A stretch of DNA of 48,217 bases, taken from the IMG/VR virus record IMGVR_UViG_3300036859_000196, positions 1 to 48,217 of that record; one strand, written 5' to 3'. How positions within the stretch are numbered: the first letter of the stretch is position 1; each line of letters starts with the position of its first letter. The position numbers were made by a program, and so were the translations under genes. Source of the stretch: a virus. Shown piece by piece: positions 1-48,217 of this stretch. Below the pieces are notes generated by a model. The model saw only the letters and a program-made list of their open reading frames with translations. It was not told where the DNA came from and did no database searches.

Positions 1-125
1 TTACTGTGGATTGGGACCGCGACGTGATGGGCTACTCGCCCGACCGCGTCGACGCCCTGGTGTGGGCGATCACCGAACTGATGCTGGCCAACCGCGCCCG
101 CGGCGGCCTTGTGGGGACGTTCTGA
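1..125 (+). CDS. terL: Terminase large subunit, 3' terminal fragment (window-edge copy of 47403..47527)
   Basis: nt 1..127 identical to 47403..47529 and 48091..48217; stop TGA 123-125 overlaps portal ATG 125-127. Confidence 0.6.
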   Translation, partial: TVDWDRDVMGYSPDRVDALVWAITELMLANRARGGLVGTF

Positions 126-1501
126 TGCGCAAGCATGGCTTCATGTTGCGGTTGCGCACCGCCATCACGGCGTTCTGGCTCGCCAAGGCCTCCGCCGTCG
201 GCCCCCTCATCGCGCGCCTCGTCGTCGGCCGCGCCGTCTATCCCGAGCGAGACTACGCTAAGCTCGCGCAGGAGGCCTACCAGCGCAACAGCGTGGCCTC
301 GTCCGCCATCCGCATGATCGCCGAGTCAGTGGCCCAGATCCCATGGTGCATGTACTCCGGCAAGGGCGACAACCGCACAGAGATCGAGGAGCACCCGTTC
401 CTCGACCTGATGCAGTCGCCCAACCCCACGCAGGACTGGCAGTCGCTGATCACCGCACTGATCAGCAACTACAAGATCAGCGGCAACCTCTACTGCGAGC
501 GGACCGAGGAGGCGAAGATCGAGCGCATGGAGCTCTACGCGCACCGTCCCGACCGCATCACCATCGTGCCGGACGAGACCGGCGTGCCGGCGGCGTACAA
601 GTACCGCTGCGGCGGTGCCGAGCGCGACTTCGAGATCGACATCGACAAGCAGACGCGGCCGCTGCTCCACCTCAAGACGTTCAATCCGCTCAACGACTGG
701 TATGGTCAGAGCCCCCTCGATGCGTGCGCGTGGGCCATCGATCTGCACAACGGCTACTCGTCGCACAATCTGGGCCTGTTGCAGAACAGCGGCAGCCCAT
801 CGGGCGCGCTGGTATTCAGGGGTACCACGCAGGAGCCCGGCTCGCTGGACCCCGACCGGGCCGCGATCCTGCTTGCCCAGATCCGCGGCGAGGAACGCGG
901 CTACGACAAGAACGGCTCGCGAATGCTGCTCGACGGCGGCGAGTGGCAGTGGCTGCAGATGGGCCTCGATGCCGACAAGATGCAGTCGATGGAGGGCAAG
1001 AACCAGGCCGCGCGAGAGATAGCCTTCACGCTCGGCGTCCCCCCGATGCTGCTCGGCATTCCCGGTGACAACACCTATTCCAACTACCAGGAAGCGCGGC
1101 AGGCCTTCTACCAGGAGACCGTCATCCCGCTCGCGAGCATGCTGGTGCGTGCGTTCCAGCAGTGGTTCGCCAAGGCCCTCGGCAAGGGCGTGTATCTGGA
1201 GGCCAACATCGACGATCTCGACGCCCTGGCCGCAGCCCGCGCCGAGCAGTGGGACCGCATCGAGAAGTCCGAGCAGCTCACCACCAACGAGAAGCGCGAC
1301 GCCATGGGCTACGAGCCTGTCGACGGCGGCGACGTGCTGTACGTGAGCGCTGGCAAGATCCCGATCGATCAGGCGGTGGACACCTTCGAGGCCGATCAGG
1401 ACCGCGCCGACGAGGCGCTTGCGGCGAAGAAGCCGCCCAAGGTCAAGTCGGGCGGGCCGGTGTTCAAGTCGCCGCCCGTTGTCCATGAGGCAAGCGAATG
1501 A
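125..1501 (+). CDS. Portal protein (HK97-family-like)
   Basis: 458-aa ORF directly after terL; portal-like size and position; ATG 125 inside longer TTG-initiated ORF 11..1501. Confidence 0.8.
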   Translation: MRKHGFMLRLRTAITAFWLAKASAVGPLIARLVVGRAVYPERDYAKLAQEAYQRNSVASSAIRMIAESVAQIPWCMYSGKGDNRTEIEEHPFLDLMQSPNPTQDWQSLITALISNYKISGNLYCERTEEAKIERMELYAHRPDRITIVPDETGVPAAYKYRCGGAERDFEIDIDKQTRPLLHLKTFNPLNDWYGQSPLDACAWAIDLHNGYSSHNLGLLQNSGSPSGALVFRGTTQEPGSLDPDRAAILLAQIRGEERGYDKNGSRMLLDGGEWQWLQMGLDADKMQSMEGKNQAAREIAFTLGVPPMLLGIPGDNTYSNYQEARQAFYQETVIPLASMLVRAFQQWFAKALGKGVYLEANIDDLDALAAARAEQWDRIEKSEQLTTNEKRDAMGYEPVDGGDVLYVSAGKIPIDQAVDTFEADQDRADEALAAKKPPKVKSGGPVFKSPPVVHEASE

Positions 1502-10918: not shown

Positions 10919-12778
10919 ATGCCCGACGCCAATCTCAATTTCCAGATCACCGGCGACGCATCGCAGTTCCGCGCGGCGCTGAACCAGGCGCAGACGGCAA
11001 GCCGGCAGACCGCGGAGGGCATGACGACCGCCTTCACGCGCGCGACCGAGAAGGTCGCCACGTCGGTGCGCGATCTCGGCCGCGGCATAGGGGGCGTCTT
11101 CGAGCAGGTCGCCCGCAACATCGGCCAGGCCGCGACGCAGTGGGGCGATCAATGGGCGGGCACGGCGCAGGGCGCTTTCAACTCGGTGTCGTCTGCCGCG
11201 CGCGGAATGATTTCCGCCGTGGCGGGGATCTTCGGCGGCGCTACCGCGCGCATGGCGGACATCGCACTCAACCTGTTTGCGCTGCCGTTCGAGAACGCCC
11301 TGGACCACGCGTCACGCGCCGCTGCGCGGTTCCTGCGAGACATCCCATCGGCATCCACCGCAAGCGCCGGGACGGGCATGAGCTACTTCGAGGCCAACCT
11401 TGCGGTGCTGCGCCGGGCCGTCAGATCGATGATGGGTCTGTCCGGCGGCCTCGGCGACAGGCCCCAAGCGTTCGAATTTGAGCAGGCCATGGCCGGGATC
11501 AATCCCGCGGGCACTAGCCAGTCGCCAATGGAGCGAATGGACCCGCTGCGGATGACGGAACTGGGCCGGACTTTCGGCCCAGCCGTTGCCAACCTCACGG
11601 GCCAGGCGCAGTTGGAGGAGCGCGCTGCCGCAGTGGTCGGCCAGACCGCGGGCGCCATTGCGAGGGCGCGCGCCGAATTGGAGCTGTGGCGCGCGCTGTG
11701 GCTTCAGGGCGACCGGGAGCCGAACGCCGATCAGGTTGCAGCCATGGAGGCAATCCTCAACCGGATCGCCAATGCTGCCGACGCGCGCCAATCGAACCAG
11801 GACAGACAGCAAGTGCTCGCGCAGATCCGGCGCGAGATCGAGATGGAGCGTGAGCGGGCGGACGCGATCAATCTGACCGCAGGCGCTCGTGCGCGGGAAC
11901 GCTCCGAGGCCATAGTCCGCGGCTTCCGCCAAGGCCGGGGCGGCCGAGGCGCGAACCTTCTCGAAGATGACGAGGTGCAGGCTGCGCTCGCGCGCAGGGA
12001 AGCCGCCGCCGACGCCGCCGCGCACACGCGCCTTGCGGCCGAAATGGGCCAGGCGGTGCAATTTCAGACCATGGCATTCGACCGCCAGCGCCAATCGATC
12101 GGGGCCACCGCCGGCGAGATGGCGCGGCTTCTGTTCGTGGAGCAGCAGCACCAGGCGGCGATCCGTGCTGGCGTGCTTCTGTCGGATGATGAAGCAGAGG
12201 CGATCAACCGCAACGCCGAAGCAATCGCTCAAAGGACGCAGGCGCTGACGCTCGCGAACGAGCAGTTCAGGCGGTTGTTGGACACCGGCCGCGTGGTTGC
12301 GAGCAGCCTGGAGAGCGCATTCGCCAAGTTCATGGACGGCACCAAGCAGAGCTGGCGCTCGCTCGTGAACGACCTCTCCAAGGACATGGCCAAGCTCGCC
12401 TTCCGGCAGCTGTTCATCAACACCCTGTTCGGCCAGGGCGCCGGCTCGTCCAACCCGCTGGGGCTATTCGGTCAGGTGTTCGGCGGCTTCCGCGCCGAGG
12501 GCGGCTCGGTGTCGGCCGGCACGTCCTACATGGTCGGCGAGCGCGGCCCGGAACTGTTCCGCCCGCGCCAGTCCGGCACCATCGTGCCCAACAGCGCCAT
12601 GCGCGGCGGCGACCCCGCAGTCATCAACATGCGCATCGACCTCTCCGGCGCGAACGGCGACGAGACCATCGCCCGCATCTCCGGCCAAGCGGCGCGCATG
12701 GCGGCGATGGCGGCGGTGCAGGAGAGCAACGCGGCGTTCCCCGCGCGACAGCGCCGGCTGCAGATGCTGGGGACGTGA
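10919..12778 (+). CDS. Tail tape measure protein
   Basis: 619 aa, Ala/Gln-rich helical; C-terminal FRAEGGSVSAGTSYMVGERGPELFRP typical of tape measure C-terminus. Confidence 0.8.
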   Translation: MPDANLNFQITGDASQFRAALNQAQTASRQTAEGMTTAFTRATEKVATSVRDLGRGIGGVFEQVARNIGQAATQWGDQWAGTAQGAFNSVSSAARGMISAVAGIFGGATARMADIALNLFALPFENALDHASRAAARFLRDIPSASTASAGTGMSYFEANLAVLRRAVRSMMGLSGGLGDRPQAFEFEQAMAGINPAGTSQSPMERMDPLRMTELGRTFGPAVANLTGQAQLEERAAAVVGQTAGAIARARAELELWRALWLQGDREPNADQVAAMEAILNRIANAADARQSNQDRQQVLAQIRREIEMERERADAINLTAGARARERSEAIVRGFRQGRGGRGANLLEDDEVQAALARREAAADAAAHTRLAAEMGQAVQFQTMAFDRQRQSIGATAGEMARLLFVEQQHQAAIRAGVLLSDDEAEAINRNAEAIAQRTQALTLANEQFRRLLDTGRVVASSLESAFAKFMDGTKQSWRSLVNDLSKDMAKLAFRQLFINTLFGQGAGSSNPLGLFGQVFGGFRAEGGSVSAGTSYMVGERGPELFRPRQSGTIVPNSAMRGGDPAVINMRIDLSGANGDETIARISGQAARMAAMAAVQESNAAFPARQRRLQMLGT

Positions 12779-12780
12779 CA

Positions 12781-13212
12781 ATGACCGACGCGTTGCGACT
12801 GGAGCGCAAGACTTGGGTCGAAGCTCTGATGTTGATCGCCGGCGGCGCTGCCATGATCACGGCATATGCTGTCTGGGTTGCCGGTAAAATGGCCGTCACC
12901 GAGTTCGGGAAGCGCAAGATCGTTGAGCTTTTCCTGACGGAGGAGGAGCGCATTGAGCGCGAGATTGCTGAGATCGACCTCGATGTTCGGCGCAATGAGC
13001 GCTACCTGGAACGCGGGGCGGTAGATGCACATAGGGACGACGCGCGCGACATCTTGCTCGAGCGCAACGAAGGGCTTCTTGAGCGGCGTGCCGTGCTTGA
13101 TGACAAGCTCCGCGAGCTCCGTCGCGTCATGAGCGAATTTGACGATGTGCCAACCGCAGGCGAGGACGAGAAGTCCGCCCGTGTCCCCGGCGCGCACATG
13201 GTCTACCGATGA
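12781..13212 (+). CDS. Membrane-anchored coiled-coil protein, C-terminal ...VPGAHMVYR tail family
   Basis: N-terminal hydrophobic segment; stop overlaps next ATG (ATGA); shared C-terminal motif. Confidence 0.6.
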   Translation: MTDALRLERKTWVEALMLIAGGAAMITAYAVWVAGKMAVTEFGKRKIVELFLTEEERIEREIAEIDLDVRRNERYLERGAVDAHRDDARDILLERNEGLLERRAVLDDKLRELRRVMSEFDDVPTAGEDEKSARVPGAHMVYR

Positions 13213-14213
13213 ATTTCTACCCCTCGATCATCTACTGGCCGCGCATTCTGCAGCGCGACCGCCGCTGGACGTGGGAGCTGGCCGCCCGCACGCTCTCCGG
13301 TGGCCGCTCCATGTCCGGCCTGATGCCGGTCGCGCGCCTCGACGGCGGCGGCATGTGGATGGCCTCGCTCGGCGATGTCCAGGTGTCCACCCCGGACCAG
13401 GTCAGGGCGTGGCGGGCCATCGCGGCTCGGCTCGACAGCGGGGCGACGCCGATCGCCGTGGAGGCGCGGGACGAACGCCACTCGCCATGGCCGCTCGTGG
13501 GCGGCGTGCCGCTGGTCGCCGAATACGAGGCCACCAACTCGGACGGCAGCACACCGTCCGATCAGACGAACTACGTCTCCGACGTGATCCAAGCCGAGGT
13601 CAAGACGGCCGCGGCGCTCAGGGCGACAACTCTGGATCTGATCCTGGAGAACGCCCAGGCGCTTCGCGGCGGCGAATACTTCAGCATACAGCACGACACG
13701 TTCAGTCACCGGCTCTACCGCCTCGGCAAGGTGACAAAGATCGACACGAGCGACCACGCAGTCAGCGCGATGACGGTGACCATCGCCTCGCCTGGCGTGT
13801 TCACCGTGACGGCGCACGGCTTCGCGGCCAGGCAGCGGGTCTACTTCCGCACCTCCGGCGCGCTGCCGACGGGGCTGTCGCCGGAAACGCTCTACTTCGT
13901 GTTGTCCACAGATTTGTCGGCCAACACCTTCAAGGCCTCCGCGACCGAGGAAGGGACCGCGATCAACACGTCGGGCAGCCAGTCCGGCACGCACCGCGTG
14001 GTGACTGGTGGCTTCCCGACCGTGACAATCCGCCCGCCGCTGCGCGAGGACACTACCGCCGGCACGCGTGTCGAGTTCGACAACCCCACGTGTATCATGC
14101 GGCTCGCGGCGCCTGATGCCATGGATCTGGTACTCGACCGCCGCATCTACGGCCAAGCCGATGTCAAGTTCGTCGAGGACTTCCCGCCGTTCGATCTGGT
14201 GGAGGACGCATGA
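13209..14213 (+). CDS. Putative distal tail protein
   Basis: 334-aa ORF after tape measure; assignment by position only. Confidence 0.45.
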   Translation: MNFYPSIIYWPRILQRDRRWTWELAARTLSGGRSMSGLMPVARLDGGGMWMASLGDVQVSTPDQVRAWRAIAARLDSGATPIAVEARDERHSPWPLVGGVPLVAEYEATNSDGSTPSDQTNYVSDVIQAEVKTAAALRATTLDLILENAQALRGGEYFSIQHDTFSHRLYRLGKVTKIDTSDHAVSAMTVTIASPGVFTVTAHGFAARQRVYFRTSGALPTGLSPETLYFVLSTDLSANTFKASATEEGTAINTSGSQSGTHRVVTGGFPTVTIRPPLREDTTAGTRVEFDNPTCIMRLAAPDAMDLVLDRRIYGQADVKFVEDFPPFDLVEDA

Positions 14214-29682: not shown

Positions 29683-29894
29683 GAGAGACAGAAAGCCATC
29701 AGGACATGAAATACCGCCACTGGCTCGCGTTGCTCGGTGTCCTGCTCATCGCGGGGTCGCCGTCGGCGCCGTTGCTGGCCGCGGACTGGCTGCCGGTGGC
29801 TGGTCTGTTCATTGGCGCCGGCGTCCTATGCCTGAGCGGCGCCGCTATCATCACGCCAGACGGACAACCGAGTAGGATGAGGAGGCCATGGTGA
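29667..29894 (+). CDS. Small membrane protein (two hydrophobic segments)
   Basis: ATG 29667 overlaps previous gene end. Confidence 0.4.
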   Translation: MEQAIRETESHQDMKYRHWLALLGVLLIAGSPSAPLLAADWLPVAGLFIGAGVLCLSGAAIITPDGQPSRMRRPW

Positions 29895-30347
29895 TCACGA
29901 TAGACGGGCCGCAAGGTCAAGGTGCTCAGGCTACAACCCGGACGTTGGCGAGTACGTGAAGATGGTTGAGATCGACGGCAAGCGACAGATGGCGGTCGGC
30001 GGTCCAGGCCGCTGACGGCTATGGACTGCGCGAGACCGCACCGAGCCGTTGCGCGAGGCGGCGACCAAGGGAGGGTGTCCTGTGCCAGCCGAGACCAGGG
30101 AACGTGAAGACTGGATTGCACGCAACCATGCGCAGTACATGCTAGTCGCCCTGCGGGACATCGCACGAGGTGGCGATGACGGCAAACCAATCGCCGCGAA
30201 GGCGGCGCAAGACCGCGCCCGCCGCGCACTGAAGAATATTGGGCTAGGTTGGCCCTTTTGGGCAAAGCCGAAGCGATAAAGGAGAAGCAGGATGAGCGAC
30301 GAAGGAAGTCGCCGCCGCGCTGCTGGAACGCAAAGGATGAGGAGGCC

Positions 30348-30578
30348 ATGACGCTGGCCGAGATGGTGGTTGAGGTGCGCACCGGCGTTGAGATGTCGCA
30401 AAAGGCATTCGCCTCAGCACTCGGTTTCTCGCCGCAGTACCTCTGCGACTTGGAGCACGGTCGGCGTCCGGGCTCTGTCGAATTTGTCAACCGCCTTTGT
30501 GATTGGATGGGGCGTGGCCCGAAGGGTCGCAAGGAATGGCACATGGCCGGTGCGCGGTCGCACGGCTGGGAAGTATAG
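30348..30578 (+). CDS. XRE-family HTH regulator
   Basis: MSQKAFASALGFSPQYLCDLEHGRRPGSVEFVNRL. Confidence 0.5.
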   Translation: MTLAEMVVEVRTGVEMSQKAFASALGFSPQYLCDLEHGRRPGSVEFVNRLCDWMGRGPKGRKEWHMAGARSHGWEV

Positions 30579-30590
30579 GATAGGGAGCCA

Positions 30591-30815
30591 ATGAATCCGG
30601 AAGTCCACTGCGCGACCTGCGGGCGCACCAAAGACCCGATGCAACACATGCGTGCCGACCATCCGCCGACTGCGGCGAAAGCGTGGCTAAAGCGCACGTG
30701 CAAACGCGAGGGCAAGCCGTGTGAGTTTGGCTATCGGGCCGGCGTTGACGTAGAAGGCCTGCGCCGGGCTCTGAAGCGCGGGACAACCGAACAGAGCAAG
30801 GATGAGGAGCGCTGA
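30591..30815 (+). CDS. Hypothetical Cys-containing protein
   Basis: 74-aa ORF. Confidence 0.3.
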   Translation: MNPEVHCATCGRTKDPMQHMRADHPPTAAKAWLKRTCKREGKPCEFGYRAGVDVEGLRRALKRGTTEQSKDEER

Positions 30816-30985
30816 CATGCCGCTGTGCGAGCATAGGCAATGGGTCGGTTCCTGCGATAGGTGCCGCATCCGGGATGGCGAACTTGGTGCTCATCGGGCC
30901 GCCTCCGCACCCGGAGCATCGGCAAAGTCGGTACATCTGTCCCGACCAACATCCGCGCGTCGGTTAATCTTTCCCTTGGAAATCA

Positions 30986-31035
30986 TGGCGGTCCCGGCAG
31001 GGCTTGAACCCGCAACCTCCGCGTTCGAAGCGCGG
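30986..31035 (-). other. attP core: 3' ~50-nt fragment of a tRNA-Arg(UCG)-like gene
   Basis: Minus strand reads anticodon stem-loop CCGCG-CTTCGAA-CGCGG, T-arm GCGGG-TTCAAGC-CCTGC, acceptor 3' strand, CCA; no D-arm or 5' acceptor strand. Confidence 0.55.
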
Positions 31036-31120
31036 CCACACGGCGCCACATGTGTGATTTTGCTGGGGTTTTTCGCGCGCATCGTCGTCCAAATCGCCCG
31101 CTCTTCGCATTTCGTTCTCG

Positions 31121-31936
31121 CTAGGTCGGTTCACATGAACCGACCAACGTCCGCGTATCCGAGAAGCGGGGGGGGGCCGCAGGGGTGCTGGCGAGTTCAC
31201 CCACCATCCACTTCGCGGCATCGGCCTTGATCTGCTCGAACACGACGGGGTGCTGGCTCTTGAAGTCCGGCATGCGCGACGACGCCACGTATCCCTGCGC
31301 GGTCGCGTCGAGCCAAATCTGCGTCCAGCGCGCCGCGTCGAGTCCGAGCAGTTTGAAGTCGCGTCGCGTCACGGGTCTCCGCTCCAGAATGGCAACGATC
31401 TTGAGCGCCTTGATCTTCCACGCCGTCAGTTGGACCGGGGCACTATGGCCGGCGCCGCTGTCGGGGACATAGTCAGGGAGGGCGACCCGCTTCACCGGGC
31501 ACCACTCGTGCCAATGTCGGTCATCGCCCCAGCGCTCGGCGACGTGCGGCAGATCGGGTTCGAACCTGCGGCGGTAGACCCGCTCGGACGGTGGCCATAT
31601 CGTTATCACAGTGAGTCCGAGCCAGTTGCAGATCGTGCCGAGCCCGTTCTGCTTTCCTCCTTCTGGCACCAGCACGGCACGACAATCCGGGCCGATCTCG
31701 GCGGCTCCGTACCAACGTTCGGGCAGCGCCTGCACCGCCACCGTGTTGTTGAGGATGAGCTTGGCCTCGATGCCAATCTGGAAGCCGTCTTCCCTGCGAA
31801 CGAGCAGGATGTCCCAGCCGCCAGTCTCGGCATACGCAACCCAGGCGTCACCCTTTGTGACCTGCGTGATGAACTCGGCGCAGAGCGCGACCTCGCTCTC
31901 GAAACCGGGCTTGCGGGATCGCTTCGTGGCCGTCAT
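31121..31936 (-). CDS. Hypothetical protein with PD-(D/E)xK nuclease-like motif
   Basis: Starts at ATG overlapping integrase stop; motif DILLVRREDGFQIGIEAKL; G9 tract encodes PPP near C-terminus. Confidence 0.45.
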   Translation of the reverse strand: MTATKRSRKPGFESEVALCAEFITQVTKGDAWVAYAETGGWDILLVRREDGFQIGIEAKLILNNTVAVQALPERWYGAAEIGPDCRAVLVPEGGKQNGLGTICNWLGLTVITIWPPSERVYRRRFEPDLPHVAERWGDDRHWHEWCPVKRVALPDYVPDSGAGHSAPVQLTAWKIKALKIVAILERRPVTRRDFKLLGLDAARWTQIWLDATAQGYVASSRMPDFKSQHPVVFEQIKADAAKWMVGELASTPAAPPRFSDTRTLVGSCEPT

Positions 31937-33039
31937 TCCCTGCCCCGCTTGTCCTCGATCGCCTTCGGCTCCCGCAGCGACAGCGCATTCGCCGCGCGCT
32001 GCAGGTAGTCCGGGTGGAAGCGCGCATAGACGCGCTCGGTGATCGCCGTGGAAGTGTGGCCCATGTACTGGCTGATCTCCGCCATTGGCAGCCGGGCCTG
32101 GGCCATCCAGACACCGGCGGTGTGGCGGAGCACGTAGGGTGTGACATCGTCGAGCTTGGCGCGGCGTGCGGCAGCCACGATGGCCTGGCGCACGCCCTGG
32201 CGGCCAGTGATGGGAGCCTCGTTGTACTCGATTACCCACTCGGTCTGAGCCATCTCGCGCGCCAGCTTTAGCGTCTCATAGGCCTCCTCATTGAGCGGCA
32301 CGCGAGCGCGGCCCTTGCGGGTGGCATCGCGCTCCGGGTCGTCGAGGTTCACGTGACCGAAGTAGGTGACCCCGCTCTGGGGGTGCGTCCACTTCTTGAG
32401 CGTGACGCGGTCCCATGTGAGCTGCAGGATGTGGCTCGGCCGGCCGGCGGTGGCGAACGCCAGCTGCAGCCACACCTTGACGTGGAACGCCTTGGCGGCG
32501 TCGATCAGTCGGACGGCCTCAGCCTTGGTCAACCACCGCTCACGCGGCCGGGCTGCCGGCGGGCGCTCGATCTCCGGACGGTCGCCTGAATAGAGCTTCT
32601 TCCGCTTGCCAAAGCCGAGCGCCGCAGAGAGATAAACCAGCTCGGACCGGATGCCGCCGTTCGACACCCCATGACCGCGCCGATGCCTGGCATAGGCCCG
32701 GCAGGTGGTGTCCTCGATCTGGTCCGGCATCAGGTGCCCGAAGTGTGATGCCATCGGTTTCCAGGCCTCGCGCATGCGGCGCGCGTCCTTGCCGACCGCC
32801 TCGCGGTCCTTGACGTACAGGTCGTAGATCGAGGCCATGGCAACCGCCTTCCCGTCTTTCCCCTGGCGCTGTGCCTCGGAGAGGCCGCTGTTCCAGCGCG
32901 CTACCTCGCGGTCAGCATCCGGCCGATTGCCCGTTGTCGCTTTGATGCCGAGCGCATGGCGCTGTTTGCTGCGTCCATGCCCCCAGACGACGCACCAGAC
33001 GCCGCGGTGTCGTCCGCGCCTGTAGACTTGATCCCCCAT
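31933..33039 (-). CDS. int: Tyrosine integrase
   Basis: N-terminal RGVWCVVWGHGRSKQRHALG arm-type region; C-terminal VLRHTAGVWMAQA...YMGHTSTAITERVYARF catalytic region. Confidence 0.85.
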   Translation of the reverse strand: MGDQVYRRGRHRGVWCVVWGHGRSKQRHALGIKATTGNRPDADREVARWNSGLSEAQRQGKDGKAVAMASIYDLYVKDREAVGKDARRMREAWKPMASHFGHLMPDQIEDTTCRAYARHRRGHGVSNGGIRSELVYLSAALGFGKRKKLYSGDRPEIERPPAARPRERWLTKAEAVRLIDAAKAFHVKVWLQLAFATAGRPSHILQLTWDRVTLKKWTHPQSGVTYFGHVNLDDPERDATRKGRARVPLNEEAYETLKLAREMAQTEWVIEYNEAPITGRQGVRQAIVAAARRAKLDDVTPYVLRHTAGVWMAQARLPMAEISQYMGHTSTAITERVYARFHPDYLQRAANALSLREPKAIEDKRGRE

Positions 33040-33233
33040 CGCACCAGCAACGCCTCCAGATCCTCGCGCCTCACGCGCACCATGCCGTCGATCCGAACCA
33101 CGGGTAGGCCCGTGCCGGGTTGATCCTTCTCGCGCTCGATCAGCGCGTAGACCTTGCTCTTCGAGCAATCGAGCTCCCGCGCGACGCTGCGGACCGAGAG
33201 AAGACGCGGCGGCAGAACTGCGGTGTCGGTCAT
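32901..33233 (-). CDS. xis: Excisionase / AlpA-like HTH protein
   Basis: LLSVRSVARELDCSKSKVYALIE...LPVVRIDGMVRVRREDLEALL; 3' end overlaps int start. Confidence 0.5.
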   Translation of the reverse strand: MTDTAVLPPRLLSVRSVARELDCSKSKVYALIEREKDQPGTGLPVVRIDGMVRVRREDLEALLVRWGIKSTGADDTAASGASSGGMDAANSAMRSASKRQRAIGRMLTAR

Positions 33234-45654: not shown

Positions 45655-46245
45655 ATGGCCAGCAAGCAGAAGTCCCGCTCGAAGTCCGCACCGAAGGCAA
45701 AGCCCGCGAACAGCTCCAAGCGGAGCCGCGGCAGGCCAAGCGACTTCAAGTCGGAGTTCTGCGATCAGGCCGAGAAGCTGTGCAAGCTCCTCAACGCCGA
45801 CGATCTGGCGCTCGCGGCCTTCTTCGAGAAGGACGTCGCCACCATCAACCGATGGAAGAAGGCGCACGCTGAATTCCGCGCGTCGATAAAAAGGGGGAAG
45901 ATCGCGGCCGACATCGAGGTCGCGCACAGCTTTCATGAACGCGCCCGCGGCTACGAGTGGCAAGAGGCCGTGCCGATCAAGCTGAAGACCGTCGAGTACC
46001 ACGATGGCAAGCGGGTCAAGGAGAGCGAGCGCGTCGAGATCGTCATGGTCACAAAGCGCCAACCTGCGGACGTGACGGCGGGCATCTTCTGGATGAAGAA
46101 CCGACAGCACGAGACGTGGCGCGACAAGCACGATCACGCGCACTCCGGCGCCGTCGATGTGAACCTCACAGAGGTACGCGGTGGAATTGCGGGCAAGCTC
46201 GATCGCATCGCTTCCGCCCTCGAAAAGGCAAGCGTTCCTCGATAG
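45655..46245 (+). CDS. terS: Terminase small subunit
   Basis: Basic N-terminus then RGRPSDFKSEFCDQAEKLCKL..DVATINRWKKAHAEFRASIKRGK HTH-like region. Confidence 0.65.
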   Translation: MASKQKSRSKSAPKAKPANSSKRSRGRPSDFKSEFCDQAEKLCKLLNADDLALAAFFEKDVATINRWKKAHAEFRASIKRGKIAADIEVAHSFHERARGYEWQEAVPIKLKTVEYHDGKRVKESERVEIVMVTKRQPADVTAGIFWMKNRQHETWRDKHDHAHSGAVDVNLTEVRGGIAGKLDRIASALEKASVPR

Positions 46246-47527
46246 CCTGAGCGGCGACGAGCTCGCCCACATCGAGCACGACTGGCGCTTCTGGGCTCGC
46301 GACGAGCAACTCGCACCGCCGGGCCTGTGGCGCATATGGCTGCTGCTGGCCGGACGCGGCTTCGGCAAGACCCGCGTCGGTGCCGAGTGGTGCCACGAAC
46401 GCGCCGCCGAGTCCGTCTGCCGCATCGCCATCGTCGGCGCCACGATGGACGACGCCCGCAAGATCTGCGTCGATGGCGAGTCCGGCATCATGGCGTGCGC
46501 CAAGCCGTGGTTCCGCCCGACCTTCGAGCCGTCGAAGAACGGCGGCACGGTGACGTGGCCCAACGGCTCGCTGGCCGAACTCTACTCGGGCGAGAAGCCG
46601 GACGGCCTGCGCGGGCCGCAGTTCCATGCGGCGTGGCTCGACGAGCTGCTGAAGTGGCGCCGCATGCAGGCGGCCTGGGACATGCTCAGGTTCGCGCTGC
46701 GGCTTGGCACTCACCCGCGCACCGTGATAACCACCACGCCGACGCCAGCGAAGCTGATCAAGGACCTGGTCAATGACAAGCGCACGGGGGCGGACGGTTT
46801 GCCCATGGTGCGCGTAGTGCGCGGCTCGACCTACGCCAACGCCGCCAACCTATCGGCCGACGCCCTCGACGAACTGCGCACCAAGTACGAGGGCACCCGC
46901 CTCGGCCGGCAGGAGCTGTTCGGCGAGATCCTCGAAGACCGCCCCGGCGCGCTCTGGACATATGCCAACATCGACGAGCACCGCATCAATGACCCGGAAC
47001 AGGTCCCCAAGCTTGAGCGCACCATCGTCGCCATCGATCCTCCCGTCACTTCGGGCGAGGATGCCGACGAGTGCGGCATCGTCGCCGCCGGGCGGGGGCC
47101 GCACTCGCACGCCTACGTGCTCGGCGATGCGTCCGAGCGGGGCCTCTCGCCTAAGCAATGGGCTCAGAAGGCGCTTCGGCTTTACCACGACACCGGTGCG
47201 GGCCTGATCGTCGCCGAGGCCAACAACGGCGGCGAGATGATCAAGCACGTGATCAACACCGAGGCGCCGGAGGTCAAGGTCAAACTGGTGCACGCTAGCA
47301 AGGGCAAGGTCACCCGCGCCGAGCCGGTGTCGAGCCTCTACGAGCAAGGCCGAGTGCACCACGTCGGCACCTTCAAGGCGCTCGAAGATCAGCAAACTGA
47401 CTTTACTGTGGATTGGGACCGCGACGTGATGGGCTACTCGCCCGACCGCGTCGACGCCCTGGTGTGGGCGATCACCGAACTGATGCTGGCCAACCGCGCC
47501 CGCGGCGGCCTTGTGGGGACGTTCTGA
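46181..47527 (+). CDS. terL: Terminase large subunit (GTA-like family)
   Basis: N-terminal LSGDELAHIEHDWRFWARDEQLAPPGLWRIWLLLAGRGFGKTR (Walker A-like); GTG start overlapping terS. Confidence 0.85.
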   Translation: MELRASSIASLPPSKRQAFLDSLSGDELAHIEHDWRFWARDEQLAPPGLWRIWLLLAGRGFGKTRVGAEWCHERAAESVCRIAIVGATMDDARKICVDGESGIMACAKPWFRPTFEPSKNGGTVTWPNGSLAELYSGEKPDGLRGPQFHAAWLDELLKWRRMQAAWDMLRFALRLGTHPRTVITTTPTPAKLIKDLVNDKRTGADGLPMVRVVRGSTYANAANLSADALDELRTKYEGTRLGRQELFGEILEDRPGALWTYANIDEHRINDPEQVPKLERTIVAIDPPVTSGEDADECGIVAAGRGPHSHAYVLGDASERGLSPKQWAQKALRLYHDTGAGLIVAEANNGGEMIKHVINTEAPEVKVKLVHASKGKVTRAEPVSSLYEQGRVHHVGTFKALEDQQTDFTVDWDRDVMGYSPDRVDALVWAITELMLANRARGGLVGTF

Positions 47528-48044: not shown

Positions 48045-48217
48045 CACCACGTCGGCACCTTCAAGGCGCTCGAAGATCAGCAAACTGACTTTACTGTGGA
48101 TTGGGACCGCGACGTGATGGGCTACTCGCCCGACCGCGTCGACGCCCTGGTGTGGGCGATCACCGAACTGATGCTGGCCAACCGCGCCCGCGGCGGCCTT
48201 GTGGGGACGTTCTGATG
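48045..48217 (+). repeat. 173-bp direct repeat, copy C (terL 3' end remnant)
   Basis: Identical to 47357..47529; continues as window 1..127. Confidence 0.85.

What the first reader, a model, noticed from the sequence alone, without database searches (positions are those of the whole stretch)
30940..31160. attP built on a tRNA-Arg(UCG) 3' fragment, flanked by direct repeats and a palindrome
The minus strand at 30986..31035 reads as the 3' part of a tRNA (anticodon loop CUUCGAA, T-loop TTCAAGC, CCA) with no 5' half, as expected for a phage att core that rebuilds the tRNA on integration. Two copies of CCGACCAAC(A/G)TCCGCG (30942-30957, 31139-31154) flank it. A 20-bp palindrome GTCGGTTCA-CA-TGAACCGAC (31125-31144) lies next to the stop of the gene downstream of int. 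These are candidate integrase arm or core binding sites.
Basis: partly seen in the sequence, partly recalled or inferred. Interest (0 to 1): 0.45.

Follow-up and report, generated by a model that had tools for sequence, protein, structure and literature searches.

The report
Phage attP at tRNA-Arg(UCG)
This is the attachment site of a temperate phage: it carries the last 51 bases of its host's arginine tRNA gene so that the gene is rebuilt when the phage inserts into it, which is a well-known and ordinary arrangement.

Summary

- **Core.** Window 30986-31036 (minus strand) is an exact copy of the last 51 nt of a 77-nt tRNA-Arg(UCG) gene. This covers position 26, the anticodon arm, variable loop, T arm, 3' acceptor strand and CCA. 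The same 51 nt occur in 19 Hyphomicrobiaceae/Alphaproteobacteria genomes. The 5' half is absent.
- **Setting.** The fragment lies in a 305-bp non-coding gap downstream of xis-like, int and a cargo ORF. The contig is a complete, circularly assembled 48-kb phage genome.
- **Arms.** The repeats and the palindrome are one element. It is a ~36-40 bp unit holding an inverted pair of GTCGGKWC octamers, present once on each side of the core.
- **Conservation.** Three related phages (integrase 73-87% identical) keep the core and both arm units, while the spacers and the cargo gene diverge. More distant relatives (56-63%) keep the int-proximal arm and spacer layout, and one also keeps the distal arm, but they carry a tRNA-Thr(CGU) fragment. 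Two of these are integrated prophages that abut host genes right after the fragment.
- **Junction.** A contig from run SRR11829739 joins this phage's DNA through the core to the tRNA's 5' half, as attL would. It comes from a k=31 assembly, so it could be chimeric.

Verdict: an ordinary anticodon-centred tRNA attP and a new member of a known kind. Interest is low.

The parts
32901..33233 (-). Excisionase-like HTH gene (xis/RDF candidate). The ORF is given as listed; its 3' part overlaps the start of int.
   Evidence: Pfam HTH_17 PF12728, E=1.5e-6 on residues 11-63. PHROG 66 'excisionase and transcriptional regulator', E=7.5e-6.
31933..33039 (-). Tyrosine integrase, 368 aa. It has three domains: an N-terminal arm-binding-like domain, a core-binding domain and a catalytic domain.
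   Evidence: Pfam Phage_integrase PF00589, E=2.7e-18. AlphaFold model with pLDDT 90.3 shows three N-terminal strands plus a helix at residues 7-50. The best PDB matches are full-length lambda Int 1z1g/1z1b over 353-358 columns. A 367-aa homologue, P0001, is 87% identical over 99% of the query.
31121..31936 (-). Cargo ORF between int and attP (271 aa, function unknown). Its last codons run into the arm site.
   Evidence: PHROG 15779 (unknown function), E=1.5e-43, covering residues 6-242 only. No Pfam or PADLOC hit. A different gene occupies this position in L003, L004, L024 and L027.
31120..31155 (-). Int-proximal arm unit. It is a 36-nt repeat copy containing the palindrome GGTCGGTTCA-CA-TGAACCGACC (31124-31145), which is an inverted pair of GTCGGTTC octamers.
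   Evidence: In the four Arg-class attP sites, 77% of columns are invariant, against 0% immediately upstream. The unit is recognisable in Thr-class relatives.
31037..31119 (-). Spacer between the proximal arm and the core. It holds a conserved GAGAACGAAA box (31119..31110) and two phased A-tracts (31073..31069 and 31061..31058, about 11.5 bp apart). This is a candidate bending or accessory-factor region.
   Evidence: Alignments A1 and A2: GAACGAAA and the AAAA...AAAA tracts are kept in all six relatives, while only 41% of spacer columns are invariant overall. The function is inferred.
30986..31036 (-). attP core, identical to the 3' 51 nt of host tRNA-Arg(UCG) (position 26 through CCA).
   Evidence: Exact match inside a full 77-nt tRNA-Arg(tcg) in 19 of 19 genome loci. 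It is identical in L003 and L004, and identical in L024 except for one compensatory anticodon-stem pair.
31019..31035 (-). Inferred crossover region. The 7-nt anticodon loop CTTCGAA (31030..31024) is flanked by the inverted 5-bp anticodon-stem strands CCGCG/CGCGG. These are taken as the core-type Int sites and the overlap.
   Evidence: Inference from where identity begins, exactly at the 5' edge of the anticodon arm, and from the 'anticodon-centred attP' class described in PMC4383910. The crossover has not been mapped.
30922..30957 (-). Int-distal arm unit. It is the second 36-nt repeat copy, with the degenerate palindrome GTCGGTAC-ATCT-GTCCCGAC (30927-30946).
   Evidence: In Arg-class relatives 66% of columns are invariant, against 7% in the adjacent 26-nt spacer. 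The unit is absent after the fragment in the integrated relatives L001 and L027.
30844..30851 (+). An extra single GTCGGTTC octamer about 75 bp beyond the distal arm. It may be an additional half-site or chance.
   Evidence: It is not conserved in L003 or L004.

Best explanation
The 305-bp non-coding gap at 30816-31120 holds the core, the distal arm and the spacers. Together with the int-proximal arm at 31120-31155, which overlaps the end of the cargo ORF, it forms the attP site of a complete temperate phage of Hyphomicrobiaceae-type Alphaproteobacteria.

The core is a 51-bp copy of the 3' part of the host tRNA-Arg(UCG) gene. The phage's lambda-type tyrosine integrase (31933-33039) recombines this core with the identical stretch of the chromosomal gene. 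The crossover is most likely in the 7-bp anticodon loop, which is flanked by the two inverted anticodon-stem strands. Because the phage copy runs from the anticodon arm to CCA, insertion regenerates an intact tRNA gene at one prophage end: host 5' half + core + distal arm. It leaves the displaced 3' fragment next to int at the other end: int - cargo ORF - proximal arm - core - host flank.

The two ~36-40-bp units at 31120-31155 and 30922-30957 each contain an inverted pair of GTCGGKWC octamers. They are the arm-type sites that assemble the intasome, probably through the integrase's N-terminal domain and/or the HTH_17 Xis-like protein. The A-tract spacer may provide bending.

Shown here: the core's identity to host tRNA genes, the absence of a 5' half, conservation of the arms, the integrase fold, and integrated relatives. 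Inferred: the crossover position, which protein binds the arms, and bending.
For: 1. **Exact host match.** The 51 nt match full-length tRNA-Arg(tcg) genes exactly in 19 genomes. Identity stops exactly at the 5' edge of the anticodon arm and at CCA.
2. **No tRNA gene in the window.** ARAGORN finds none. The 5' flank is not conserved in relatives.
3. **Gene context.** The order xis-like, int, cargo ORF, att is established. The integrase model has lambda Int's three-domain architecture, including an N-terminal beta-sheet plus helix domain.
4. **Free form.** The contig has a 127-bp exact terminal overlap and carries portal, capsid, tape-measure and terminase genes. It is therefore a complete circular phage genome, so this is the free attP form with both arms.
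5. **Comparative pattern in L003, L004 and L024 (int 73-87%).** The proportion of invariant columns is 96% in the core, 77% in the proximal arm and 66% in the distal arm. It is 41% and 7% in the two spacers and 0% upstream.
6. **A host-tracking variant.** The L024 core differs by one compensatory anticodon-stem pair (CTGCG/CGCAG). This is what is expected if the core tracks a different host's tRNA.
7. **Thr-class relatives.** L001 (a 166-kb contig) and L027 show int, an ORF, the proximal arm, the spacer and a tRNA-Thr(CGU) 3' fragment, followed directly by host genes with no distal arm and no full tRNA. This is the predicted attR. L029 has both arms, as expected for attP.
8. **A junction contig for this phage.** L031 (run SRR11829739) is identical to window 29844-31036. 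It then continues into the tRNA 5' half, and ARAGORN calls a complete tRNA-Arg(tcg) there.
9. **Motif clustering.** GTCGGKWC octamers are clustered at the site.
10. **Literature.** Anticodon-centred attP sites and displaced 3' tDNA fragments are the commonest pattern of island integration (PMC4383910).
Against: - **No unambiguous lysogen of this phage.** None of the 19 host loci (8 kb or less each) holds an int homologue or an arm site.
- **Uninformative collection scans.** Pattern scans of metagenome contigs for attL and for core plus arm found nothing. However, that collection did not return the window, L003 or L004 either.
- **The junction contig may be chimeric.** L031 comes from a k=31 de Bruijn assembly. 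The 51-bp core is shared with host tRNA genes, so the path could be a graph chimera.
- **Weak sequence-level support for the arm-binding domain.** No Pfam arm-binding family hits the integrase N-terminus. That domain rests on a predicted fold.
- **An unusual arm layout.** Each arm has one composite palindromic unit rather than an array of short asymmetric sites. The binding protein is therefore uncertain.
Confidence: 0.9

Rival explanations
1. The fragment is a functional phage-encoded RNA. It would be a D-armless tRNA-like molecule or tRNA-half decoy transcribed downstream of int and the cargo ORF, not a recombination site.
For: Rfam's tRNA model scores 30.8 bits, just above its gathering score of 29. 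The alignment runs end to end through the model and uses GGCGCCG as a 5' acceptor strand.
Against: - The D arm is deleted (2 nt in place of 15), and 2 of the 7 acceptor pairs are non-standard.
- ARAGORN finds nothing.
- The supposed 5' strand differs in L003, L004 and L024, while the 51-nt block is invariant.
- Rfam finds no tRNA in those relatives.
- The region does not fold better than shuffles (z = -0.58).
- No promoter-like site is found.
- Such fragments are known to be mis-called as tRNA genes (PMC9897764).
Confidence: 0.03
2. The fragment is a scar. It would be host DNA picked up by an imprecise excision or recombination event and no longer used, with the real attachment site elsewhere or the phage no longer integrating.
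For: No unambiguous lysogen junction of this exact phage was recovered from long contigs.
Against: - A scar would decay. Instead the 51 nt are identical to present-day host genes and are invariant in phages whose integrases differ by 13-27%, while the flanks diverge.
- The block ends exactly at the anticodon arm and at CCA.
- Both conserved arm units bracket it.
- Integrated relatives show the homologous fragment exactly at the prophage/host boundary.
- An attL-type contig exists for this phage.
Confidence: 0.04
3. The site is attP, but the 36-bp palindromic units are not integrase arm sites. They would bind a dimeric accessory or regulatory protein (the HTH_17 Xis-like protein, a repressor or a host factor), or the proximal one would act as a transcription stop for int and the cargo ORF.
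For: - A 20-22-bp palindrome suggests a symmetric dimer. Known lambda-type arm sites, as recalled from memory, are short asymmetric repeats in arrays.
- The integrase N-terminus has no Pfam arm-domain hit.
- The proximal unit lies at the 3' end of the int operon.
Against: - The integrase model has an N-terminal three-strand plus helix domain, and its best matches are full-length lambda Int.
- The unit occurs on both sides of the core in the same orientation, as arm sites do.
- No U-run follows the hairpin, and the terminator scan finds nothing there.
- The unit stays in place although the upstream gene changes in every relative.
Confidence: 0.25

Closest known systems
Anticodon-centred ('A' class) tRNA-gene attachment sites of tyrosine-integrase prophages and genomic islands (Williams 2002 classification, as summarised in Islander, PMC4383910, and in bioRxiv 10.1101/2020.11.02.365908)
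   Same: - The element carries the 3' part of a tRNA gene from the anticodon arm to the 3' end.
- Integration regenerates the gene and displaces a 3' fragment.
- The symmetric anticodon stem-loop is the presumed crossover site.
- Related integrases use different tRNA genes at the same sublocation, here Arg(UCG) and Thr(CGU).
   Different: Nothing differs in principle. The host clade (uncultured Hyphomicrobiaceae), the target gene and this integrase clade are not represented among isolate phages, where the best match is 36% identical.
Bacteriophage lambda attP / Int / Xis
   Same: - The gene order runs xis, int, then attP.
- The integrase has three domains, and its predicted fold best matches full-length lambda Int.
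- The core is flanked by two arms carrying repeated sites.
- An A/T-tract region lies between arm and core and could bend DNA.
   Different: - Lambda's core is 15 bp in an intergenic site, not a tRNA gene.
- Lambda's arms carry five asymmetric Int arm sites plus IHF, Xis and Fis sites (from memory). Here each arm has one ~36-40-bp composite unit with an inverted octamer pair.
- Here a variable cargo gene sits between int and attP.
- Integrase sequence identity to lambda Int in the structural alignment is about 16%.
Rhizobium phage 16-3 attP (tRNA-Pro) and Haemophilus phage HP1 attP (tRNA-Leu). Both are recalled from memory and were not tested here.
   Same: They are temperate phages whose att core is a roughly 50-bp or longer identity with the 3' part of a host tRNA gene. 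16-3 infects an alphaproteobacterium.
   Different: The target tRNAs are different. No detectable close relationship appeared in the phage collection search. The Rhizobium phage hits (RHph and RHEph phages, not 16-3) were 26-28% identical. The arm-site layouts were not compared.

Membership tests
tRNA-gene attP of a tyrosine-integrase temperate phage (anticodon-centred class) | A tyrosine recombinase gene lies adjacent to the site. | tested here: met
   PF00589, E=2.7e-18. The structure model matches lambda Int, XerA and Tn1549 Int. The int stop is 897 bp from the core, with one cargo ORF between them.
tRNA-gene attP of a tyrosine-integrase temperate phage (anticodon-centred class) | The core is identical to the 3' part of a host tRNA gene and runs through to the gene's 3' end. 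| tested here: met
   The 51 nt match exactly inside a 77-nt tRNA-Arg(tcg) in 19 of 19 genome loci.
tRNA-gene attP of a tyrosine-integrase temperate phage (anticodon-centred class) | The element carries only a fragment and lacks the 5' half, so it is not an autonomous tRNA gene. | tested here: met
   ARAGORN finds 0 genes. The Rfam hit requires deleting the D arm. The 5' flank is unconserved. Relatives give no Rfam hit.
tRNA-gene attP of a tyrosine-integrase temperate phage (anticodon-centred class) | The identity block begins at the anticodon arm, with the crossover in the anticodon loop. | tested here: inconclusive
   The block boundary is met: identity starts at position 26, immediately 5' of the anticodon stem. 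In Thr-class relatives it starts 3 bp before the loop. The actual strand-exchange positions cannot be mapped from sequence.
tRNA-gene attP of a tyrosine-integrase temperate phage (anticodon-centred class) | Hybrid junctions exist: attL is the full tRNA plus the phage arm, and attR is the phage arm plus the fragment plus the host flank. | tested here: inconclusive
   For this phage, contig L031 has exactly the attL structure. It comes from a k=31 assembly across a 51-bp shared core, so chimerism is not excluded. For relatives, attR-type junctions are clear in a 166-kb contig and a 47-kb contig (L001, L027).
Lambda-type (heterobivalent) integrase system with arm sites | The integrase has an N-terminal arm-binding domain. 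| tested here: met
   The predicted fold has strands at 7-11, 14-19 and 26-33 plus a helix at 36-50, with pLDDT of about 80-95. The top PDB hits are full-length lambda Int over 353-358 columns. No Pfam arm-domain hit was found, so this rests on fold and not on family membership.
Lambda-type (heterobivalent) integrase system with arm sites | Repeated sites lie on both sides of the core and are conserved among related elements. | tested here: met
   The two 36-nt units are established. They are conserved in L003, L004 and L024 against diverged spacers. The octamers are clustered.
Lambda-type (heterobivalent) integrase system with arm sites | Int, and Xis or host factors, bind those sites. | not testable with these tools
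   This needs EMSA or footprinting.
Lambda-type (heterobivalent) integrase system with arm sites | A recombination directionality factor gene is nearby. | tested here: met
   An HTH_17 ORF lies immediately upstream of int. PHROG 66 'excisionase' hits it at E=7.5e-6. This is similarity only.
Functional phage-encoded tRNA gene | A complete cloverleaf is present (acceptor, D, anticodon and T arms). | tested here: not met
   ARAGORN finds none. Rfam's alignment leaves 2 nt where the D arm should be and has 2 non-standard acceptor pairs.
Intrinsic terminator (for the palindrome) | A G+C-rich hairpin is followed by a U-run on the transcribed strand. | tested here: not met
   The terminator scan finds nothing at 31124-31145 on either strand. 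The minus-strand sequence after the hairpin is UAGCGAGAACG.

The most novel reading that the evidence does not exclude
This integrase clade uses a pared-down attP. Each arm has a single ~36-40-bp composite unit built on a 20-bp inverted octamer pair, instead of arrays of short asymmetric arm sites. The clade has kept this arm and spacer scaffold unchanged while swapping the core between tRNA-Thr(CGU) and tRNA-Arg(UCG). If the palindromic units are read by a dimer (Int N-domains or the Xis-like protein), this would be a minimal, naturally retargetable intasome design. It could be useful as a template for engineering integrase specificity.
Probability: 0.25. Interest if true: 0.4.

Novelty: new member of a known kind. 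Interest (0 to 1): 0.2.

Why it matters
**What it gives.** It assigns a host (Hyphomicrobiaceae-type Alphaproteobacteria with this tRNA-Arg(UCG) gene) and a lifestyle (temperate, site-specific integration) to an uncultivated 48-kb phage. It also defines the attP, attB and expected attL/attR sequences needed to find its lysogens in metagenomes.

**Comparative result.** The same arm and spacer layout appears on two different tRNA cores. This is a tidy natural example of integrase retargeting, but the phenomenon itself is textbook.

**Practical lesson.** The site scores just above Rfam's tRNA threshold, so annotation pipelines could report a spurious tRNA gene here.

Tried and rejected
- **Phage collection, DNA search.** Megablast of the att/int region and of the first 24 kb found no match. 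There is no close cultured relative.
- **Core in viral contigs.** 0 hits.
- **Arm unit in viral contigs.** 0 hits.
- **Integrase in viral contigs.** One relative only, L029.
- **Metagenome-contig scans.** The attL pattern (tRNA D-arm end + core + gap + arm) and the core + arm pattern both gave 0 hits. These negatives are weak, because the collection did not return the window, L003 or L004, which do contain the second pattern.
- **The 19 host loci.** tblastn for int or the cargo ORF found none. A search for arm sites found none. No lysogen exists among these species representatives within the 8 kb held.
- **Rfam on the Thr-class fragment in L001.** No tRNA call was made. The Thr(CGU) assignment rests on reading the anticodon loop TTCGTAA, the T arm and the CCA directly.
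- **Structured RNA.** An RNA fold of the 276-nt att region gave z = -0.58, so a structured RNA was rejected.
- **Terminator reading of the palindrome.** Rejected. The only terminator-like hit, on the + strand at 31037-31056, is at chance level and is not conserved in relatives.
- **Cargo ORFs.** PADLOC and Pfam gave nothing, except an Arm-DNA-bind_3 domain in L003's cargo ORF.
- **Williams 2002 (PMC100330).** The paper is not held. It is cited only through PMC4383910 and the 2020 bioRxiv preprint.
- **One call failed.** exceeded the size limit and was rerun.
Full report
**1. What is in the sequence**

Read on the minus strand, 31036..30986 is GCCGCGCTTCGAACGCGGAGGTTGCGGGTTCAAGCCCTGCCGGGACCGCCA. 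The parts are as follows:

- position 26
- a 5-bp anticodon stem, CCGCG/CGCGG, around the loop CTTCGAA (anticodon UCG)
- a 5-nt variable loop
- the T arm, GCGGG-TTCAAGC-CCTGC
- the 3' acceptor strand, the discriminator and CCA

ARAGORN finds no tRNA or tmRNA anywhere in the 48,217-bp window.

Copies lie at 30942-30957 and 31140-31155, so the second copy was one base off. These are the only two matches in the window even with two mismatches allowed, against 0.22 expected. The repeat finder shows that the repeat is really 36 nt long at 78% identity, 30922-30957 and 31120-31155. It also shows that the palindrome GGTCGGTTCA-CA-TGAACCGACC (31124-31145) lies inside the second copy. The first copy has a degenerate version, GTCGGTAC-ATCT-GTCCCGAC. 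So 'repeats' and 'palindrome' are one composite unit, present once on each side of the tRNA fragment in the same orientation.

The octamer GTCGGKWC occurs nine times in the window, as chance predicts. But five of the nine lie in 30844-31144. None of 200,000 random placements gave such a cluster.

**2. Context**

The genes on the minus strand run in this order:

- An HTH_17 excisionase-like ORF at 33233..32901 (PF12728; PHROG 66).
- A tyrosine integrase at 33039..31933 (PF00589, E=2.7e-18).
- A 271-aa ORF of unknown function at 31936..31121. PHROG 15779 covers residues 6-242 only.

Third-position GC content shows that coding stops at about 31120 on the minus strand and at 30815 on the plus strand. 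The core, the distal arm and the spacers therefore lie in a 305-bp non-coding gap between convergent genes, and the proximal arm overlaps the tail of the 271-aa ORF.

The contig has an exact 127-bp terminal direct repeat. It encodes a portal protein, a head-morphogenesis protein, the major capsid protein, a tape measure, a tail fibre and the large terminase. It is therefore a complete, circularly assembled phage genome, and the site is seen in its free (attP) form with phage DNA on both sides.

An AlphaFold model of the integrase has mean pLDDT 90.3. It shows an N-terminal three-stranded sheet plus helix at residues 7-50, ahead of the core-binding and catalytic domains. Its best PDB matches are the full-length lambda integrase chains 1z1g and 1z1b, over 353-358 columns. 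So it is a lambda-type integrase of the kind that uses arm sites, although no Pfam arm-domain model hits its N-terminus.

**3. The host gene**

An exact search for the 51-mer in one genome per species returned 19 loci. All are Hyphomicrobiaceae, Rhizobiales or 'uncultured Alphaproteobacteria' MAGs. In every one the match is the 3' end of a 77-nt tRNA-Arg(tcg) called by ARAGORN.

Fifteen of the genes read GGTCCCGTAGCTCAACTGGATAGAGT followed by the 51-mer. In the phage the preceding bases are ...GGCGCCGTGTG, which is unrelated, and the bases after CCA are unrelated too. Phage-host identity thus begins immediately 5' of the anticodon stem and ends at the end of the gene.

None of the 19 loci (8 kb or less each) contains an integrase homologue or an arm unit. 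They are unoccupied attB sites.

**4. Relatives**

The integrase has 745 homologues at E<=1e-10 in the protein collection. Contigs were fetched for several of them.

*Arg class.* These are L003 (86% identical), L024 (87%) and L004 (73-77%). All carry the same fragment at the same place downstream of int. In the four-way alignment, the proportion of invariant columns is:

| Region | Invariant columns |
|---|---|
| Core | 96% |
| Proximal arm | 77% |
| Distal arm | 66% |
| Arm-to-core spacer | 41% |
| Core-to-distal-arm spacer | 7% |
| Upstream of the proximal arm | 0% |

The only core differences are in L024, where CCGCG/CGCGG becomes CTGCG/CGCAG. This is a compensatory change in the anticodon stem, as expected if that phage copies a different host's tRNA-Arg. 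The gene between int and attP differs in every phage: 271, 196, 94 and 205 aa, all unrelated.

*Thr class.* These are L001 and L027 (59%), L026 (63%) and L029 (56%). L001, L027 and L029 keep the proximal arm unit, the GAACGAAA box and the A-tracts. In L026 only the tRNA fragment was found, about 2 kb downstream of int, and the GAACGAAA box is absent. All four carry GCATTCGTAATGCGTGGG(T/C)CGGGGGTTC(A/G)A(A/T)TCCCTCCTGCGGCACCA, which reads as the 3' part of a tRNA-Thr(CGU).

- L029 has both arms, so it is an attP.
- L001 (a 166-kb contig) and L027 (a 47-kb MAG contig) have the fragment followed directly by host genes. These include a solute-binding protein, a metallo-beta-lactamase/rhodanese, AhpC and RsmB. 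There is no distal arm and no full tRNA.

That is exactly the predicted int-side prophage junction. Within one integrase clade the same arm and spacer layout therefore serves two different tRNA cores. This agrees with the general rule that integrase subfamilies keep the sublocation but change the tRNA (bioRxiv 10.1101/2020.11.02.365908, citing Williams 2002).

**5. A junction for this phage**

An exact-sequence look-up of the 74-aa protein encoded at 30591-30815 found a 1,220-bp Logan contig from run SRR11829739, L031. It is identical to window 29844-31036. It diverges at the first base beyond the core into ACTCTATCCAGTTGAGCTACGGGACCG, which is the reverse complement of the host tRNA's 5' half. 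ARAGORN calls a complete tRNA-Arg(tcg) at L031 1143-1219. The three-way alignment of attP, L031 and attB is the textbook picture.

There is a caveat. Logan assemblies use k=31 and the shared core is 51 bp, so a path from the phage arm through the core into the tRNA could be a graph artefact. In another run, the Logan contig of the L001-type prophage (L002) stops about 30 nt into its core, as an unresolved branch would. That shows such contigs often break there, but it does not prove L031 is genuine. I count L031 as supporting evidence, not decisive evidence.

**6. The covariance-model objection**

Rfam's tRNA model hits 30989-31047 on the minus strand at 30.8 bits, against a gathering score of 29. 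The alignment leaves 2 nt where 15 D-arm positions belong and has two non-standard pairs among the seven acceptor pairs.

The 5' bases it uses (GGCGCCG) are replaced by unrelated sequence in L003, L004 and L024. A scan of those loci gives no tRNA hit at E<=0.1. The region does not fold better than shuffled sequence (z = -0.58).

This is a fragment that happens to be preceded by a partly complementary heptamer. Fragments created by integration are a documented source of false tRNA calls (PMC9897764).

**7. Mechanism**

*Shown.*

- The core is identical to the host tRNA gene from position 26 to CCA.
- There are two conserved flanking units.
- A lambda-type integrase and a Xis-like gene are adjacent.
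- Relatives are integrated, with the fragment at the boundary.

*Inferred.*

- Strand exchange occurs in the 7-bp anticodon loop (31030..31024) between the inverted stem strands. This is the 'anticodon-centred' class, which accounts for 2,083 of 3,919 islands in Islander. Of those islands, 3,760 carry 3' fragments (PMC4383910).
- Integration yields host 5' half + core + distal arm, giving an intact tRNA at one end. At the other end it yields int - cargo ORF - proximal arm - core fragment - host flank.
- The GTCGGKWC pairs are bound by the Int N-domain and/or the Xis-like protein.
- The phased A-tracts (31073..31069 and 31061..31058) help bending.

The palindrome is not a terminator. No U-run follows it, and the scan finds nothing there.

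**8. Comparison and verdict**

This works like lambda attP in its architecture, and like the large class of tRNA-anticodon-loop attachment sites in its target choice. Every membership feature that can be tested from sequence is met. Protein binding and the crossover position cannot be tested here, and the attL evidence for this exact phage needs read-level confirmation.

No cultured phage has a close integrase; the best match is 36% identical. No DNA match was found either. The phage and its integrase clade are therefore new members, but the kind of system is thoroughly known.

The finding is ordinary and of low interest beyond host assignment for an uncultivated phage. The Arg/Thr core swap on a constant arm scaffold is a modest comparative point.

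Noticed in passing
window 1-127 and 48091-48217: The contig has an exact 127-bp terminal direct repeat, the signature of a circular assembly. With terminase at 46181-47527 and portal at 11-1501, the window is a complete ~48.1-kb temperate phage genome.
   Followed up: yes
window 31121-31936 (-); L003 5415-6005; L004 1701-1985; L024 2109-2726; L027 10921-11436: The slot between int and attP holds a different, unrelated ORF in every related phage, like a cargo or 'moron' position. The window's ORF belongs to PHROG 15779 (unknown function) and contains a D..E.K-like stretch (GWDILLV...IGIEAKL). None of these ORFs hits PADLOC.
   Followed up: partly
L003 5415-6005: The cargo ORF of L003 (196 aa) carries an Arm-DNA-bind_3 domain (PF13356, E=8e-8) but no catalytic domain. 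It is either a stand-alone arm-binding protein or an integrase remnant, and it sits right next to attP.
   Followed up: no
window 31168-31176: A run of nine G (C9 on the coding strand) lies in the non-conserved tail of the cargo ORF, just before the arm site. The independent Logan contig L030 ends nearby, at 31204. The run could be a slippage-prone tract or an assembly weak point. The ORF's last ~29 residues, which read into the arm unit, may not be a genuine protein tail.
   Followed up: no
window 31933-33039 (-): The public gene call for the integrase (P0002, 301 aa) starts 67 codons too late and omits the N-terminal arm-binding-like domain. Homologues such as P0001 (367 aa) and the confident structure model support the ATG at 33039. 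That start overlaps the end of the xis-like reading frame.
   Followed up: partly
L001 11203-11250; L027 ~11560-11610; L026 ~13200-13260; L029 ~11150-11200: Integrases 56-63% identical use a tRNA-Thr(CGU) 3' fragment as core. L001, L027 and L029 keep the same proximal arm, GAACGAAA box and A-tract layout; in L026 only the fragment was identified. L001 and L027 are integrated prophages (attR-type junctions), and L029 is an attP with both arms.
   Followed up: partly
L024 ~2852-2902: The core of this 87%-identical integrase's attP differs from the window's by one compensatory anticodon-stem base pair (CTGCG/CGCAG). This implies a host with a slightly different tRNA-Arg(UCG).
   Followed up: no
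window 30860-30900 (-) versus L003 6250-6290: A GGAG...ATGAGC.CCAAG start region just beyond the distal arm is conserved with L003, where it opens a real 120-aa gene. In the window the corresponding minus-strand ORF has low GC3 (0.58) and overlaps a better plus-strand ORF (30591-30815). It is probably a vestigial gene start left by mosaic recombination.
   Followed up: no
window 31037-31056 (+): A terminator-like hairpin plus T-run (CACACGGCGCCACATGTGTG ATTTTG) lies on the plus strand directly abutting the core. It is at chance level in the scan and is not conserved in relatives.
   Followed up: partly
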